Origin: Planctomycetota bacterium
Lineage (GTDB): Bacteria; Planctomycetota; MHYJ01; JACQXL01
Length of the DNA stretch: 37,488 nt
Direction of reading: 5' to 3'
Assembly (NCBI GenBank): GCA_043807745.1
Contig: JAZDFP010000016.1
Span: forward strand, 1 to 37,488
A program made the position numbers and the translations under genes. Positions 14,676 to 20,714 of the stretch are shown piece after piece. Within the stretch, counting starts at the first letter, position 1; each line of letters opens with the position of its first letter. Below the pieces are notes generated by a model. That model did no database searches, was not told the origin of the DNA, and worked only from the letters and a program-made list of their open reading frames with translations.

Positions 14676-14708
14676 TTTCCCTTTCTTTTTATCCGCCTTC
14701 GCAGAAGA

Positions 14709-14774
14709 CCACGGGTTTACGCCCGTGGAACTTCATTAACTAAGCCCAGCACCCATCCCCTGGATAGGTGCTGG
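14709..14774 (-). other. Two GC-rich stem-loops in the intergenic region after the major capsid gene (attenuator or RNA-stability elements)
   Basis: The first is CCAGCACC..ATCC/GGAT..GGTGCTGG (14746..14774). The second is CCACGGG/CCCGTGG (14709..14728). Neither has a clear U-tract on the minus strand. Confidence 0.35.
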
Positions 14775-14813
14775 ACTATATCTGTTATACTAAGACCTTT
14801 CAGTCAAGTCTGT

Positions 14814-16615: not shown

Positions 16616-17371
16616 TTATCTGGAAGCGGTTCCTTCCATCGAGTATCCGGTTATCTTGCCTTCCTTGACGAGTCCCCATAGTTGGCTGTTCAGTATGTGC
16701 GTTGCCATTACCCAAGAGCCTTTCTTGACCTGCCTCTGCCCCATCGGGAAATCAACCGGGGCGATATAGCACTCGGCGATGCGCACATCTTTGTTAATTA
16801 GTTCCTGATGCATGAATGATATGTTTTGGTATTCCTCCAGGAAGTCGTGACATACCCTTTCAATTTCCTCGGCGTCGGTATAATCACCGTGAGCATCCAC
16901 GGTATCCGGTTCGTAAACGATGCCGTAGACTATCTGCTTTTCGTCGTCCCTTTTTAATATTGCTATCTCCCTTTTCATGACCAGGAAGTCATCCGGGAAT
17001 AGTGTTGCCAGTTCCTCTGATTTGTATGCTTTCATGGCTGGAGCATCTTTCGAAAACTGTTTGTAGTGTGATGCCAGGTGGTCGTAAACACCCTGTTTAT
17101 CATCTGCTGGGATATCAACTCCGCCTCTCGCGCCTAACAATGCAGCCATGGCTGTAACCACACCCTTCCACACGGCTTTCTTGTCACCTGCAGTGTGGTG
17201 AGGCATTTTATAGGATGATTTAACATCCGGGTTTTCCTCATCCATCCAAGCGCAGATTTGTTTCAGCACGGTTACATCAGCGGCCGCTATTTCTTTCGGG
17301 CCATCCCATGCCATGCCGATATCGTGCATCCCCAAATCCTTGAACGGAATCGCTTTTTTGTTTATCTCCAT
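16616..17371 (-). CDS. XkdF-like (Peptidase_S78_2-type) putative prohead protease
   Basis: The C-terminal half QIVYGIVYEPDTVDAHGDYTDAEEIERVCHDFLEEYQNISFMHQ...IAECYIAP...GYSMEG fits the XkdF domain pattern. An SD (AAAAGGAGTTGAAAA ATG) precedes it. Confidence 0.75.
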   Translation of the reverse strand: MEINKKAIPFKDLGMHDIGMAWDGPKEIAAADVTVLKQICAWMDEENPDVKSSYKMPHHTAGDKKAVWKGVVTAMAALLGARGGVDIPADDKQGVYDHLASHYKQFSKDAPAMKAYKSEELATLFPDDFLVMKREIAILKRDDEKQIVYGIVYEPDTVDAHGDYTDAEEIERVCHDFLEEYQNISFMHQELINKDVRIAECYIAPVDFPMGQRQVKKGSWVMATHILNSQLWGLVKEGKITGYSMEGTASR

Positions 17372-17391
17372 TTTTCAACTCCTTTTTGTTC

Positions 17392-17430
17392 AAATAAAAA
17401 AGCCGTTCAAACGTTATGTCTGAACGGCTT
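17392..17430 (-). terminator. Rho-independent terminator (repeat copy A) after the portal gene
   Basis: Minus strand: AAGCCGTTCA-gacataacgtt-TGAACGGCTT, followed by TTTTTTATTT. The stem is 10 bp and perfect. Confidence 0.7.
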
Positions 17431-17446
17431 AAGATTATTTCTATTA
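17392..17446. repeat. 55-bp exact direct repeat, copy A (partner at 19671..19725)
   Basis: aaataaaaaagccgttcaaacgttatgtctgaacggcttaagattatttctatta is identical at both positions by direct comparison. Confidence 0.95.
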
Positions 17447-17477
17447 GCCGTGTTATAAAATGCTATACTTTGTTATA

Positions 17478-19547
17478 TTATTCTACTACTGGAATTAACG
17501 TGCAACGACAGTTGCACAAATTTTTCGCTGAACCTTTCGGGTCACCGGGATATGCCATTATTTCCCCGCCCACGGAGAAGTCATCTTCAATATTTACCAC
17601 CTGCCCGTTTACTGCGGCGTGTTCCGGCCTGGTCCGCTCATCAATCGCGGTTAACCATTCCTTTTTCTCAGCCCCCATGGTCTTATATCCTATCAGACTT
17701 GCGTTATTGGATGCAGATATTACTTCCGTCCTGGCAATCGTCCGCGCCCGGTAAGGTTCGGCTCTGGTCATTCCGTCAAATACATCCTGCACCCTTGCCT
17801 TCATTTCCTCGATACTCTCGCCGTCATTGTATCCCTCGCCGAGTGTATCCCCGAGTTCCCTTAGCGTAGTCTTATTTATCTCATCTGCGAATTTGAATAT
17901 CTTGGTATTAAGATAATCGACTACTCTTGGGTCGGAAATGTCAAAATCAATAGACCCACCCAGCCTCTTGATTGCGACATTGCCGAACTCCTTCATGGTT
18001 TCACTCAATACTCCGGACATCTGTCTCTGTAATTCCTTATTGGCAAGTGTAATATTAAACATCAGGTTATCTACCTTGGCGTCTTTTCTAATCTTGTCCT
18101 TACCGACCCTTGTTGGTCTGTAATTCTTATCAATCGCATCCATTACCTCAGCCATCTGTTTCTTGGCAAATTTTCTTACGACTACTATCATCTCGTCCTC
18201 ATATGGTTTAGTCCGGTCTACGTAGTCGCGCCATATCCGCTCTTTCTTCTCTTTCTTGGTCAACCTTGACTTGGTGACGGCCGGTTCAGGCTTAACTTCG
18301 TCTGCCGGGTAAAGATTAAAAGGACGATTCCATGTATATCCCCACGGGACCGCCGGCAATCCCCGGCGCGCCCTGACCTCGTTTATCGTTTCTATGCCGT
18401 TGGTCACAAGGGCAACGTCCATCGTCGTTCTCTTTTCCTCATTCTCCGCCATCGCTTTGATGAATTTATAATCAGGTTCAAAATAAAGATTTTCATCTAT
18501 CGGATAGCATAATTGAACCGTCAAGGTTGCCGCCATCTTTTCGGAAAGCGCCATTATAAGTTCATTGACGAATGTCTTTTTCTGTTCCTCCATATTGGAG
18601 TAATTGGTATATTCCAATATTCCTAAAATTCCCGGGGGGGTGCCAATTACTCCGAGTATTTCACTGCATCCCTGCTTCCTGCCCTCAATGAATTCGCTGT
18701 CTTTTTGGCTCTGTGTCGTCGGGGTATATTCTAATCCGTTATCCAAAAATAATTGCTTATGGAAATTGTCGGGTCCGGAATATTCAGTCTCTATCTGCCG
18801 TTTTATCCTTTCGAATGAATCGTCACTCAAGGATTTTTCGGTTGTGAATACTCCCGATACCTTCCCGCCTTTTTTGAAGAAGTTCTTGTTATATGCGATT
18901 GCGTAGTAATCCGTTATCAGGGTATTAACTAAAGGCGATAATGGAGATAACCCTTCGGAATCGGATAATGGATTCCAGAACTTGAAGTGTATCATTTCGA
19001 ACGGCTGGTATTCTATCGGCTTCTTCCCGTATTCGTATCTGATTACAGGCGTCGTTTTTCCAGGCACTACTACCGTCTTTCCAGATTGCAAAATAAATAA
19101 TTCTTTTGGTATATCAGAAGGTGCGGGTTTCCTTTTGTTGTATTCTTTTGCCGTGAAACAGTTGCCGGCGAGTGATAAATTTATTGAGATTCCTTCTTTC
19201 AAATCATAACCAGAATAAAACGGATTCGGTTTTTCAAGTAAATTAATAAGCAGATGGTCTTTTACCTCAATTCCCTTATCGCCCTTCCACTGCATGAGTT
19301 TAAAAGGGCACTTGGCGATGTTCCTGGCGATTGCCGCTATTGATGAATGAACCCATGGATGCAGGGAATAATTCTCCAAGTATTTCTGCCAGATTGAATT
19401 TGATTGTGATTTGCCGAATTGTTTGTTGTCATAATCATTTTCCAGAGCCCGGTTCTCTTTTGATATGGTTATGTCCCCGCCGGCACTGATAGATCTGAAC
19501 CGAGGATTATCTGGGATGGATTCAGATTTTGATATTTTCCTCTTCAT
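17478..19547 (-). CDS. Portal protein fused to a Mu F / SPP1 gp7-like minor head protein domain
   Basis: ~689 aa. The N-terminal two thirds are portal-like (position and size). The C-terminus RTIARTEVISASNNASLIGYK...WLTAIDERTRPEHAAVNGQVV...YPGDPKGSAKNLCNCRCTLIPV is a clear Phage_Mu_F motif. The ORF-track start at 19559 is a TTG. I prefer the first ATG at 19547 (MKRKISKSE). Confidence 0.85.
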   Translation of the reverse strand: MKRKISKSESIPDNPRFRSISAGGDITISKENRALENDYDNKQFGKSQSNSIWQKYLENYSLHPWVHSSIAAIARNIAKCPFKLMQWKGDKGIEVKDHLLINLLEKPNPFYSGYDLKEGISINLSLAGNCFTAKEYNKRKPAPSDIPKELFILQSGKTVVVPGKTTPVIRYEYGKKPIEYQPFEMIHFKFWNPLSDSEGLSPLSPLVNTLITDYYAIAYNKNFFKKGGKVSGVFTTEKSLSDDSFERIKRQIETEYSGPDNFHKQLFLDNGLEYTPTTQSQKDSEFIEGRKQGCSEILGVIGTPPGILGILEYTNYSNMEEQKKTFVNELIMALSEKMAATLTVQLCYPIDENLYFEPDYKFIKAMAENEEKRTTMDVALVTNGIETINEVRARRGLPAVPWGYTWNRPFNLYPADEVKPEPAVTKSRLTKKEKKERIWRDYVDRTKPYEDEMIVVVRKFAKKQMAEVMDAIDKNYRPTRVGKDKIRKDAKVDNLMFNITLANKELQRQMSGVLSETMKEFGNVAIKRLGGSIDFDISDPRVVDYLNTKIFKFADEINKTTLRELGDTLGEGYNDGESIEEMKARVQDVFDGMTRAEPYRARTIARTEVISASNNASLIGYKTMGAEKKEWLTAIDERTRPEHAAVNGQVVNIEDDFSVGGEIMAYPGDPKGSAKNLCNCRCTLIPVVE

Positions 19548-19560
19548 AGCATAAAGCAAA

Positions 19561-19584
19561 GAGACTCCGTGTTATCGGAGTCTC
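19561..19584 (-). promoter_or_regulatory. Perfect 9-bp hairpin 13 nt upstream of the portal ATG
   Basis: GAGACTCCG-ataaca-CGGAGTCTC, followed on the minus strand by TTTGCTTTATGCT ATG. It could act as an attenuator or as a translational control element. Confidence 0.35.
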
Positions 19585-19670
19585 AGTGCGCAATTAGATT
19601 CGCCGCTATACACGTGTAAATTGGCTAATGGGTCAGCCTCAAACCTTAGCGACGTCTCTAATTTTGTCAT

Positions 19671-19709
19671 AAATAAAAAAGCCGTTCAAACGTTATGTCT
19701 GAACGGCTT
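19671..19709 (-). terminator. Rho-independent terminator (repeat copy B) at the end of the accessory island
   Basis: Same 10-bp stem and TTTTTTATTT tail as copy A. Confidence 0.7.
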
Positions 19710-19725
19710 AAGATTATTTCTATTA
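19671..19725. repeat. 55-bp exact direct repeat, copy B (partner at 17392..17446)
   Basis: Identical to copy A. Identity breaks at 19726 (a, versus g at 17447). Confidence 0.95.
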
Positions 19726-19764
19726 ACCGAAAAATCTAATTATAACCTCTGCCTTTATTTCATA
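19672..19764 (-). ncRNA. Candidate ~90-nt promoter-to-terminator transcript (small RNA or leader)
   Basis: It is bounded by the sigma70-like promoter at 19770..19798 and terminator copy B. It contains only a 2-codon mini-ORF (AAGGAAATT ATG AAA TAA). Confidence 0.3.
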
Positions 19765-19769
19765 ATTTC

Positions 19770-19798
19770 CTTATAGCACAAATGAATTCGGTTGTCAA
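19770..19798 (-). promoter_or_regulatory. Sigma70-like promoter: -35 TTGACA, 17-nt spacer, extended -10 TGC-TATAAG
   Basis: Minus strand TTGACA (19798..19793), then ACCGAATTCATTTGTGC, then TATAAG (19775..19770). The TG lies at 19778..19777. Confidence 0.5.
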
Positions 19799-19801
19799 GC
19801 A

Positions 19802-20308
19802 TTATTCTCGTTTTCGAGAAGATTTTTTATTAGGGAATTTAGTTGCTTTGGCAGATACTCCGACTGCCGTTTCTTCTTTTCCTATCATAGCACCTCGACA
19901 TCCGATTTGCATCGGTGGAATTTTATATTCATGTGCCGTAACAATTGTAAATACATGACGATACGAATTTTCGTCTATTAAATTATATTTATATGAAAAT
20001 TCATACCCTTCGTATCCATATGAACTTTTACTATATTGTATATCAAAGCAAGGAATATTCTTATTGCCACCTAATATGGAACATAATCGTGATACAGCCC
20101 TAACGAATTCCCCTTTAGTCTTTATTTTGCTAACCCTCTTACCATTCCATGTTAATTTTCCTTTAATCTGAACCCAATATTTATATTCACCATCTTGAAG
20201 TATTCCTATTGATTCGTCAAATTGATAATCAACTAAATGATGAATGGTTATATGCTTAGTCAAAAACGGATAAGTCCCATTCAGGATATTTTTAGTAAAA
20301 TCTTTCAT
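19802..20308 (-). CDS. Hypothetical protein (168 aa), last gene of the island
   Basis: ORF with a strong SD (GGAAAGGAGAAAAT ATG) and an ATGA overlap with the upstream small ORF. It has a basic C-terminal tail. No family recognised. Confidence 0.6.
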   Translation of the reverse strand: MKDFTKNILNGTYPFLTKHITIHHLVDYQFDESIGILQDGEYKYWVQIKGKLTWNGKRVSKIKTKGEFVRAVSRLCSILGGNKNIPCFDIQYSKSSYGYEGYEFSYKYNLIDENSYRHVFTIVTAHEYKIPPMQIGCRGAMIGKEETAVGVSAKATKFPNKKSSRKRE

Positions 20309-20478
20309 ATTTTCTCCTTTCCAAATTTATCTACCCAAAATCCCACTATATCATTTGGATAAGCCTCATTAAACTCTATGTCATTTGCCGCACTATTCAA
20401 CGCTTCGTCTAAAGTTTCATGAGATTCAGTTTCCCCAGCATGGAATCTTGTTTTGTAATAAATATATTCATTCGCCAT
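20305..20478 (-). CDS. Small acidic hypothetical protein (57 aa), absent from the ORF track
   Basis: I translated MANEYIYYKTRFHAGETESHETLDEALNSAANDIEFNEAYPNDIVGFWVDKFGKEKI. AGGAGG lies 5 nt upstream of the ATG, and the stop overlaps the next start (ATGA). Confidence 0.55.
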   Translation of the reverse strand: MANEYIYYKTRFHAGETESHETLDEALNSAANDIEFNEAYPNDIVGFWVDKFGKEKI

Positions 20479-20487
20479 ACCGTCCTC

Positions 20488-20679
20488 CTACTTAATATTT
20501 TCTGGCAACACCCTGACTTTTTCTGGTAATGGTTCGTTAATATCCTCCTTTTTATATAAATAGCAAGCGCCAGCATATCCTCTTCCGGTTGCTTGCTGAC
20601 ACTTTAATATCAGGCATCTATCCCTATGGTAACAGTCTCTGCATATTCCCATGTATATGTTTTTATTAATCTGTTTCAT
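20488..20679 (-). CDS. Small Cys-rich hypothetical protein (63 aa)
   Basis: ORF with CRDCYHRDRC...C...C. It has no SD, and a possible promoter lies immediately upstream. Confidence 0.45.
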   Translation of the reverse strand: MKQINKNIYMGICRDCYHRDRCLILKCQQATGRGYAGACYLYKKEDINEPLPEKVRVLPENIK

Positions 20680-20686
20680 AATTATT

Positions 20687-20714
20687 AATATATCCTATAT
20701 ATCTTCAATGTCAA
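20687..20714 (-). promoter_or_regulatory. Candidate internal promoter giving a near-leaderless start for 20488..20679
   Basis: Minus strand TTGACA (20714..20709), a 16-nt spacer, then TATATT (20692..20687). The ATG at 20679 lies ~7 nt downstream. Confidence 0.25.

What the first reader, a model, noticed from the sequence alone, without database searches (positions are those of the whole stretch)
17392..19725. Exact 55-bp direct repeat carrying an intrinsic terminator brackets the portal gene
The sequence aaataaaaaagccgttcaaacgttatgtctgaacggcttaagattatttctatta occurs identically at 17392..17446 and at 19671..19725. The first copy lies between portal and protease, and the second between the island and portal.

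On the coding (minus) strand each copy folds into a perfect 10-bp stem followed by TTTTTTATTT. Identity extends 16 nt beyond the stem, which points to duplication or recombination rather than convergent evolution.

Three consequences follow:
- The portal-MuF gene is a repeat-flanked cassette that homologous recombination could delete or exchange.
- Copy A ends only ~20 nt before the SD of the protease gene. Expression of protease, scaffold and capsid genes would therefore need read-through, antitermination or an unseen promoter.
- The accessory island is transcriptionally insulated from the structural genes.
Basis: seen in the sequence. Interest (0 to 1): 0.6.

Follow-up and report, generated by a model that had tools for sequence, protein, structure and literature searches.

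The report
Twin terminator hairpins bracketing phage portal gene
The two identical 55-base stretches are real copies of this small phage group's own transcription-stop signal, placed before and after the portal gene and kept alike by copying between the two sites. This is an ordinary kind of phage gene punctuation with one unexplained detail.

Summary
**Observation:** confirmed. The 55-mer occurs exactly twice, at 17392-17446 and 19671-19725 (58/59 identical when extended), and nowhere else in the 2.55-Mb assembly.

**What it is:** on the coding (minus) strand each copy is a canonical intrinsic terminator. It has a 13-bp stem, a 5-nt loop, about -19 kcal/mol, and the tail UUUUUUAUUU.

**Relatives:**
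- A phage with 69% portal identity has the same module at both sites, but with a different, compensated stem at the upstream site.
- A closer relative (80% nt identity) has that second stem type at the downstream site.
- A fourth relative has no element between portal and protease.

So the module is old, dispensable at site A, and its sequence moves between the two sites. The exact identity here is best explained by recent gene conversion.

**Other features:** copy B lies about 90 nt after a conserved sigma-70-like promoter and is followed by a second terminator-like hairpin and a portal start without a usable SD. Copy A ends 7 nt before the protease SD, so head genes need read-through.

**Open points:** a conserved 26-nt hairpin overlapping each terminator hints at regulated antitermination, which is unproven. 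I found no evidence of portal exchange.

The parts
19770..19798 (-). Sigma-70-like promoter: TTGACA (19798-19793), 17-nt spacer, TGc-TATAAG (19775-19770). It starts 4 nt after the stop of the last island ORF.
   Evidence: Read. The -35, -10 and spacing align in register with TTGACG-17-TATAAA in relative L117 (alignment A2). The -10 lacks the usual T at its last position, so the consensus scan did not list it.
19755..19763 (-). Two-codon mini-ORF ATG-AAA-TAA. Its A lies 7 nt after the -10 hexamer, so it may be the transcript's 5' end.
   Evidence: L117 has ATG-AGG-TAG at the same offset. Its function was not tested.
19667..19732 (-). Terminator module copy B. It consists of a linker hairpin (CGGUUAAUAGAAAUAAUCUUAAGCCG), a 13-bp terminator hairpin (19709-19679) and a U-tract (19678-19669). 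The exact 55-mer is 19671-19725.
   Evidence: The covariance model R1 scores it at 89.1 bits.
19572..19670 (-). Conserved 125-nt leader segment that contains a 32-codon ORF without an SD. The ATG directly abuts the U-tract. Coding status is doubtful.
   Evidence: L117 has a 29-codon counterpart sharing TSLRF..DP..NL..YS. Only two sequences are available, so no selection test was possible.
19561..19584 (-). Second terminator-like hairpin (9 bp, -15 kcal/mol) followed by UUUGCUUUAUGCU, ending 13 nt before the portal ATG.
   Evidence: L117 keeps it with two compensatory pair changes (A-U to G-C and C-G to U-A).
17478..19547 (-). Portal-MuF fusion gene (689 aa from ATG 19547). It has no properly spaced SD.
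   Evidence: Pfam Phage_portal 7e-65 plus Phage_Mu_F 1.5e-17, and PHROG 2662 2e-113. In the SD survey, 35 of 52 genes have an SD motif. The portal's only GGAG lies inside hairpin 2, 18 nt from the ATG.
17388..17453 (-). Terminator module copy A. The terminator hairpin is 17430-17400, the U-tract is 17399-17390, and the exact 55-mer is 17392-17446.
   Evidence: R1 scores it at 91 bits. It is 95% identical to the site-A element of L117, while the surrounding coding DNA is about 69% identical.
16616..17384 (-). Protease gene (XkdF-type S78) with a strong SD (AAGGAG, 17384-17379) starting 7 nt after copy A.
   Evidence: Pfam Peptidase_S78_2 8e-35; sequence.

Best explanation
**What it is.** The two copies are paralogous members of a lineage-specific intrinsic-terminator module of about 60 nt. 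The module consists of a conserved A-rich linker (GGYUAAUAGRAAKAAYCUU), a 12-13-bp hairpin and the tail UUUUUUAUUU. In this small clade of uncultured HK97-like phages it sits at two fixed sites, just upstream and just downstream of the portal-MuF gene.

**Why the copies are identical.** The layout is ancestral. The exact identity in this genome comes from recent intragenomic gene conversion, in which site B was overwritten with the site-A sequence. This is inferred.

**What the copies do (inferred from sequence only).**
- Both stop or attenuate minus-strand transcription.
- Copy B ends transcripts coming from the sugar island and from a conserved promoter about 90 nt upstream. Together with a second hairpin and an SD-less start, it keeps portal expression low or conditional.
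- Copy A attenuates flow from portal into protease, scaffold and capsid, which therefore depend on leaky or factor-assisted read-through.
For: **Structure**
- Each copy has a 13-bp stem of about -19 kcal/mol plus a U6AU3 tail.
- Across 5 copies from 3 phages, 98.5% of cells are paired and 4 of 13 pairs show double (compensatory) changes. Slid controls give 20-54% pairing.
- Terminators in genomes of the MAG's own family end in the same TTTTTTATTT tail.
- These are the only strong canonical terminators on the coding strand of the 37.5-kb contig.

**Ancestry**
- L117 (portal 69% aa identity) has the module at both sites.
- L119/L124 (80% nt identity) has it at site A.

**Exchange between sites**
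- Stem/linker type alpha occurs at W-A, W-B and L117-A. Type beta occurs at L117-B and L119-A.
- So the closer relative differs at site A while the more distant one matches (95% versus 79%).
- Within-genome identity is 98% here against about 74% in L117.

**Dispensability**
- L122 has a 22-nt portal-protease gap with no element. By portal C-terminus it nests between L119 and L117 (79% aa identity to the window), so this looks like a loss.

**Not convergence**
- More than 130 pattern-matched terminators in unrelated genomes score 26-45 bits, against 83-91 bits for family members.
Against: - There are no transcript data, so termination, its efficiency and read-through are all inferred.
- Only 4 related phages exist in the collections searched (5 copies, 4 distinct sequences). 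The direction and number of conversion events therefore rest on a very small tree.
- A terminator directly before the genes needed in highest copy number (scaffold, capsid) makes little stoichiometric sense unless it is bypassed. Plain attenuation may therefore be incomplete as an explanation.
- The strong conservation of the linker (3 changes in 22 nt between types, while 6 of the 7 inner stem pairs changed) is not explained by terminator function alone.
Confidence: 0.65

Rival explanations
1. The module is a regulated switch rather than a plain terminator. The conserved 26-nt hairpin (CGGCU-AAU-AGR-AAKAA-YCU-UA-AGCCG) shares its 3' strand with the first 5-6 nt of the terminator stem. A sequence-specific RNA-binding antiterminator, from the phage or the host, would stabilise this hairpin at both sites and so turn on portal and the head genes late in infection, in the manner of RAT/LicT-BglG. 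An alternative version has RNA polymerase modified at the upstream promoter, as lambda Q does at PR'-tR', so that it reads through copy B, hairpin 2 and copy A.
For: - The alternative hairpin can form in all 5 copies (97.5% of cells paired).
- Two of the three variable linker positions are the two sides of one pair (A-U in type alpha, G-C in type beta), and the third lies in its loop.
- The linker is far more conserved than the inner terminator stem.
- Two strong terminators and a third hairpin stand between the only nearby promoter and essential genes.
- The layout of a promoter followed by a terminator about 90 nt downstream is conserved in L117.
- A -10-like TATAAT lies at about +20 of the leader (19744-19739), and L117 has GATAAT/TAATAT at the matching place.
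Against: - There is only one compensatory event, and 50 of 500 shuffles do as well.
- The alternative hairpin is weak (-4 to -8 kcal/mol) compared with -19 kcal/mol for the terminator.
- PHROGs and Pfam scans of most ORFs found no Q, N, CAT/RAT, ANTAR or other antiterminator family.
- L122 does without element A.
- The contig is partial, so a regulator could lie outside it.
Confidence: 0.2
2. Copy B is the 3' end of a small-RNA gene: the promoter at 19798-19770 would make an RNA of about 95 nt. Copy A would generate a 3'UTR-derived RNA from portal mRNA. The shared A-rich linker plus terminator would be a chaperone-binding module.
For: - A promoter fires straight into a terminator, and this layout is conserved in L117.
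- The linker reads as four A-R-N triplets, with variation only at the N positions. This is the pattern bound by the distal face of Hfq (established knowledge).
Against: - Hfq (PF17209) is over the cut-off in 0 of 10 genomes of the MAG's family, while the control genomes score positive.
- The 5' 40 nt, where a seed would lie, is the least conserved part of the leader at about 50% identity.
- There is no Rfam family. The only hit is a sub-threshold trpB-motif match at 32 bits against a gathering score of 59.
Confidence: 0.12
3. The direct repeats exist mainly as recombination substrates that let the portal gene be deleted or swapped between phages, as PeSL elements do in T4-type phages.
For: - BLAST-detectable homology between the window and L117 runs from the 5' edge of element B (19728) to 35 nt past element A (17357).
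- Non-homologous DNA lies on both sides: hypervariable small ORFs plus a TnpB upstream, and a different protease N-terminal domain downstream.
- Sequence types move between the two sites.
- PeSL precedent: PMC2839356 and PMC4122927.
Against: - Portal is essential, so deletion products are dead ends.
- Portal is orthologous and syntenic in all relatives, with identity like its neighbours (69.6% against 67-82%).
- Hand alignment shows that the conserved block actually begins at the promoter's -35, not at the element.
- There are only 2 copies and no promoter inside the repeat, unlike PeSLs.
Confidence: 0.08
4. The exact repeat is an assembly artefact. Its length of 55 nt equals a common largest k-mer size, so a shared graph node could have been mis-threaded.
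For: The exact match length of 55 coincides with a widely used assembler k value (my own knowledge). Reads could not be inspected.
Against: - A shared k-mer can scramble order but cannot create sequence.
- The order island, B, portal, A, protease is the same in the independently assembled L117.
- Element A of L117 is 95% identical to the window's.
- The repeat extends to 58/59.
- The L119 and L124 contigs from two different samples agree.
Confidence: 0.03

Closest known systems
Canonical Rho-independent (intrinsic) terminators used as internal attenuators in phage late operons, for example T7 Tphi after the capsid gene
   Same: - A GC-rich hairpin followed directly by a U-tract, co-directional with the genes and at a gene boundary inside the morphogenesis operon.
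- Downstream genes require read-through.
   Different: - Here the terminator precedes the high-copy head genes instead of following them.
- It occurs as two sequence-identical copies with a conserved upstream linker.
- Its efficiency is untested.
PeSL (promoter-early stem-loop) regulatory cassettes of T4-type phages (Arbiol et al. 2010, PMC2839356; Comeau et al. 2014, PMC4122927)
   Same: - Short repeated regulatory units that contain an effective terminator stem-loop, sit at gene junctions and border hyperplastic regions.
- They take part in homologous exchange between copies.
   Different: - PeSLs fuse a sigma-70 promoter with the stem-loop inside one unit, occur about 50 times per genome and mostly flank non-essential ORFans.
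- Here there are two copies, the repeat itself holds no promoter, and the flanked gene is the essential portal.
Lambda PR'-tR' late leader (6S RNA) with Q antitermination
   Same: A promoter is followed within about 90 nt by a strong terminator directly ahead of morphogenesis genes, and further terminators downstream must also be bypassed.
   Different: - No Q-family protein was found.
- The terminase genes lie 10 kb upstream, outside this unit.
- No QBE or pause site has been demonstrated.
RAT/terminator pairs read by BglG/SacY/LicT-type antiterminators
   Same: A conserved imperfect hairpin of about 26-29 nt overlaps the 5' strand of a terminator and is repeated at each regulated terminator.
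   Different: - There is no sequence similarity to RAT and no CAT-domain protein was found.
- Support for the hairpin is a single compensatory change.

Membership tests
Intrinsic (Rho-independent) terminator | Stable GC-rich hairpin (about 5-14 bp stem, 3-8 nt loop) | tested here: met
   13-bp stem, 5-nt loop, -19.1 kcal/mol. Compensatory changes occur in 4 of 13 pairs across relatives.
Intrinsic (Rho-independent) terminator | U-rich tract immediately 3' of the hairpin on the transcribed strand | tested here: met
   UUUUUUAUUU starts directly after the stem in all 5 copies. On the opposite strand the tail is only AAGAUUAUUU.
Intrinsic (Rho-independent) terminator | Transcript 3' ends map to the U-tract | not testable with these tools
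PeSL-type composite promoter/terminator cassette | Sigma-70 promoter and stem-loop combined within one repeated unit | tested here: not met
   The repeat (55-59 nt) holds no promoter. The promoter at site B lies about 45 nt upstream, outside the repeat, and site A has none.
PeSL-type composite promoter/terminator cassette | Many copies concentrated in hyperplastic regions, flanking ORFans | tested here: not met
   There are exactly 2 copies in the contig and in the MAG, and they flank the essential portal gene. Only site B borders a hypervariable region.
PeSL-type composite promoter/terminator cassette | Recombination between copies | tested here: inconclusive
   Sequence types swap between sites among relatives, which is consistent with exchange. 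Mini-circles or indels between copies were not testable.
Lambda-type Q antitermination leader | Q-family antiterminator gene in the phage | tested here: not met
   No antiterminator family appeared in PHROGs or Pfam scans of 50 ORFs. The contig is partial, so absence is not proven.
Lambda-type Q antitermination leader | Promoter followed closely by a terminator ahead of late genes | tested here: met
   TTGACA-17-TATAAG lies at 19798-19770 and the terminator U-tract ends at 19669. The same layout is present in L117.
Rfam RF04312 (trpB ncRNA motif) | Score at or above the gathering threshold (59 bits) | tested here: not met
   32.1 and 31.2 bits in the window, and 27 bits in L117. The match is driven by the terminator.
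Hfq-binding sRNA module ((ARN)n plus terminator) | Hfq present in the host | tested here: not met
   PF17209 is over the cut-off in 0 of 10 genomes of the MAG's family. The controls were positive. The host assignment rests on binning only.
MITE or IS-derived mobile element | Terminal inverted repeats or target-site duplication, and multiple dispersed copies including in the host | tested here: not met
   No TIR or TSD is visible at the filled sites (window, L117, L119) compared with the empty site in L122. There are no other copies in the MAG or in 400 genomes of the phylum.

The most novel reading that the evidence does not exclude
Both terminators that bracket portal carry the same conserved 26-nt hairpin, and this hairpin competes with the terminator for the strand AGCCG. 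An unidentified sequence-specific RNA-binding factor, possibly one of the phage's many small Cys-rich proteins, would lock this hairpin at both sites and so switch on portal, protease, scaffold and capsid together. If so, this is a phage late-gene switch of the RAT/antiterminator type with a new RNA element and a new protein partner.
Probability: 0.15. Interest if true: 0.65.

Novelty: new member of a known kind. Interest (0 to 1): 0.33.

Why it matters
**For annotation.** The finding shows that the head operon of this sugar-island phage is cut into units by strong terminators. It also shows that the portal gene sits in its own tightly gated compartment: a promoter, two terminators, an SD-less start, then another terminator.

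**For evolution.** It is a compact example of concerted evolution of a 60-nt regulatory element within a phage genome.

**If the antiterminator reading holds.** It would supply a testable RNA switch for late-gene timing in an uncultured phage lineage of a poorly known bacterial phylum.

Otherwise it is ordinary phage punctuation.

Tried and rejected
- **Degenerate stem pattern in viral and genome collections.** It gave 113 hits across many phyla. All share only the stem and tail (at most 33 of 55 positions), so they are convergent generic terminators and not homologues.
- **Pattern CTTAAGCCG..CGGCTTTTTTATTT.** The 21 hits in unrelated taxa score 26-45 bits and are also convergent.
- **Niabella chromosomal look-alike, L121 (43 bits).** It sits after a host gene and is most likely chance or convergence.
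- **megablast against phage records and portal peptide scan of viral contigs.** Neither found anything.
- **Search with the portal N-terminal fragment, to find more site-B contigs.** Nothing was found.
- **Hfq/(ARN)4 idea.** Rejected because Hfq is absent from the host family.
- **Coding explanation for the 3-periodic linker variation.** Rejected because there is no start codon and both copies have stops in that frame (read).
- **Promoter inside or after the element.** Rejected because only 7 nt (site A) or 0 nt (site B) separate the U-tract from the SD or ATG. Any start within the linker would still transcribe the whole hairpin.
- **RNase III site.** Rejected because the helix is only 13 bp.
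- **attL/attR of an integrated element.** Rejected because the 2.3-kb interval holds only the portal gene and its leader.
- **Known antiterminator families.** None were found.
Full report
**1.

- The 55-mer occurs with no mismatch at 17392-17446 and 19671-19725. Nothing else matches within 3 mismatches, and none of 100 shuffles gave any match.
- The pair extends to 59 nt with one mismatch.
- The window is a whole 37,488-bp contig (C16) of a 2.55-Mb, 395-contig MAG. Neither the hairpin pattern nor a covariance model finds a third copy in that assembly.
- All genes lie on the minus strand. In transcription order they are:
  - TerL (31095-29539);
  - a roughly 10-kb sugar island (DegT aminotransferase, GT4 glycosyltransferase and others);
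  - a hypervariable set of small ORFs ending at 19802;
  - copy B;
  - portal-MuF (19547-17478);
  - copy A;
  - XkdF-type protease (17371-16616), a scaffold-like ORF and the major capsid protein (16127-14814).

**2. Each copy is a canonical intrinsic terminator on the coding strand**

- The RNA folds into a 13-bp stem (one G-U) with a 5-nt loop, followed directly by UUUUUUAUUU.
- The hairpin alone is -19.1 kcal/mol. Windows of 81 nt fold at -22 and -24 kcal/mol, with z-scores of -5.4 and -6.2.
- In scans of the whole contig these two are the strongest terminator-like sites. The only comparable one on the coding strand is a 9-bp hairpin at 19584-19561, just before the portal ATG.
- Terminators in genomes of the MAG's own family end in the same TTTTTTATTT tail, so the element matches the presumed host's termination signal.

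**3. Relatives show that the layout is old and the hairpin is real**

Only a handful of relatives exist in the collections searched.

| Locus | Source | Similarity to the window | Element found |
|---|---|---|---|
| L117 | Logan contig, 52 kb | portal 69% aa | Same order (island, promoter, element, small ORF, hairpin 2, portal, element, SD, protease) |
| L119 / L124 | two samples | 80% nt over portal 3' end and protease | Site A element, found with the linker pattern |
| L122 | 1.2-kb contig | portal C-terminus 79% aa | No element: a 22-nt portal-protease gap |

- Aligning the five copies (A1) gives three different inner stems, all 12-13 bp.
- 98.5% of cells are paired and 4 of 13 pairs carry changes on both sides. 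Sliding the partner columns drops pairing to 20-54%.
- The outer stem, the U-tract and a 22-nt linker (GGYUAAUAGRAAKAAYCUUAAG) are nearly invariant.

**4. Why the two copies here are identical**

- There are two sequence types.
  - Type alpha (linker ..GAAAUAAUC.., stem GUUCAGAC) is found at window A, window B and L117 A.
  - Type beta (linker ..GGAAKAACC.., stems CUUCGAU or UCUCGA) is found at L117 B and L119 A.
- At site A, therefore, the distant relative L117 is 95% identical to the window, while the close relative L119 is only 79% identical and resembles L117's site B (83.8%).
- Within-genome identity is 98% here and about 74% in L117.
- This pattern does not follow the phage tree. It is what transfer of sequence between the two sites (gene conversion) would produce, with at least one event in this lineage (A onto B) and one in L119's lineage (B-type onto A). 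With only four phages this is an inference, not a proof.
- L122 falls between L119 and L117 by portal similarity, so its lack of element A is most simply a loss. Element A is therefore dispensable.

**5. It is not convergence, a mobile element or an assembly error**

- *Convergence.* Generic terminators with the same outer stem and tail occur in more than 130 unrelated genomes. They share neither loop nor linker and score 26-45 bits against R1, whereas family members score 83-91 bits.
- *Mobile element.* There are no inverted ends, no target duplication at filled versus empty sites, and no copies elsewhere in the MAG or in 400 genomes of its phylum.
- *Assembly error.* The match length of 55 equals a common assembler k. 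A shared k-mer can only mis-order segments, and the order is confirmed by L117.

**6. Context of copy B**

- Four nt after the last island ORF's stop lies TTGACA-17 nt-TGcTATAAG (19798-19770).
- L117 has TTGACG-17-TATAAA in register. In both, a two-codon ORF (ATG-X-stop) begins 7 nt after the -10.
- Upstream of the -35, homology between the two phages ends. The window has three ORFs without counterparts in L117. L117 has three other ORFs plus a TnpB.
- Downstream of copy B lies a conserved 125-nt stretch containing an SD-less ORF of about 30 codons. Hairpin 2 follows, kept in L117 by two compensatory changes. The portal ATG then follows, and its only GGAG lies inside hairpin 2, 18 nt from the start codon.
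- Portal is therefore preceded by a promoter, two terminator-like hairpins and a weak translation start. That fits a protein needed in only 12 copies per particle.
- The same arrangement means the head genes behind copy A must be reached by read-through.

**7. The unexplained part**

- The linker is much better conserved than the inner stem.
- It can fold into a 26-nt interrupted hairpin (5 bp, internal loop, 3 bp, loop AAKAA; -4 to -8 kcal/mol). The 3' strand of this hairpin is the first 5 nt of the terminator stem's GC core.
- Two of the three variable linker positions form one pair that switches from A-U to G-C, and the third lies in the loop.
- This is the design of a protein-stabilised antiterminator such as RAT. 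However, it rests on a single compensatory event (50 of 500 shuffles do as well), and no known antiterminator family was found among 50 ORFs.
- An Hfq-type reading of the A-R-N periodicity was rejected because the host family lacks Hfq.
- Rfam gives only a sub-threshold trpB-motif match.

**8. Comparison with known systems**

- The element meets the sequence criteria of an intrinsic terminator.
- It resembles PeSL cassettes of T4-type phages in being a repeated terminator-bearing unit at a hyperplastic border that exchanges sequence (PMC2839356, PMC4122927). It fails their defining features: no promoter inside the unit, not many copies, and not flanking ORFans.
- The promoter-then-terminator leader resembles lambda PR'-tR', but without a detectable Q.
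- Earlier notes of this scan describe similar repeated terminator or promoter units in other phages. This suggests the phenomenon is common.

**9. Verdict**

Terminators, recombinational origin, insulation and the need for read-through are plausible. The portal-cassette idea is not supported.
- This is a new member of a known kind, of modest interest, with a minority reading (a regulated antitermination switch) that is worth a simple reporter test.

Noticed in passing
L117:8534-9652 and L117:9692-9713 versus L117:9996-10017: The relative carries a TnpB (OrfB_IS605/Cas12f-like) gene inserted just upstream of the portal-leader promoter. Forty nt after its stop lies a 22-mer (TTTGTATGAGAAAAATATCCAA) that matches the portal start region 304 nt downstream at 20 of 22 positions. 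It could be a relic of an older junction, or it could be the omega-RNA guide region.
   Followed up: partly
window 14700-14785 (-), and L117:14520-14560: Directly after the major capsid gene lie two very stable hairpins (16 bp and 7 bp; the region folds at -54.6 kcal/mol, z -5.7) with no U-tract. L117 has a different strong hairpin at the same place. They are likely mRNA 3' stabilisers or non-canonical terminators for capsid mRNA.
   Followed up: partly
window 16950-17371 (-) versus L117:12190-12344 and L122:680-800: The protease N-terminus differs between relatives. The window and L119 have a roughly 130-aa N-terminal extension (251 aa in total). L117 and L122 have a short Cys-rich (CxxC..CxxC) N-terminus (162-163 aa). 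This domain swap begins a few codons after element A.
   Followed up: partly
window 19755-19763 (-) and L117:9777-9785: A start-X-stop mini-ORF (ATG AAA TAA, and ATG AGG TAG in L117) lies exactly 7 nt after the -10 hexamer in both phages. It may be a leaderless start-stop at the transcript's 5' end.
   Followed up: no
window 19802-20700 (-): The three ORFs just upstream of the promoter (168, 57 and 63 aa) have no homologue in L117 and no family hit. They lie in the lowest-GC stretch of the head region (0.34), so this is a hyperplastic spot at the island-portal border.
   Followed up: partly
L121:165-230 (Niabella defluvii chromosome): A host terminator after a chromosomal gene reads TAATAGTAACAATCTTAAGCCGTGCA..TGCACGGCTTTTTATTTA. 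That is the same linker pattern, outer stem and tail (43 bits with R1). It is probably chance, but it is the only non-phage sequence with the linker.
   Followed up: partly
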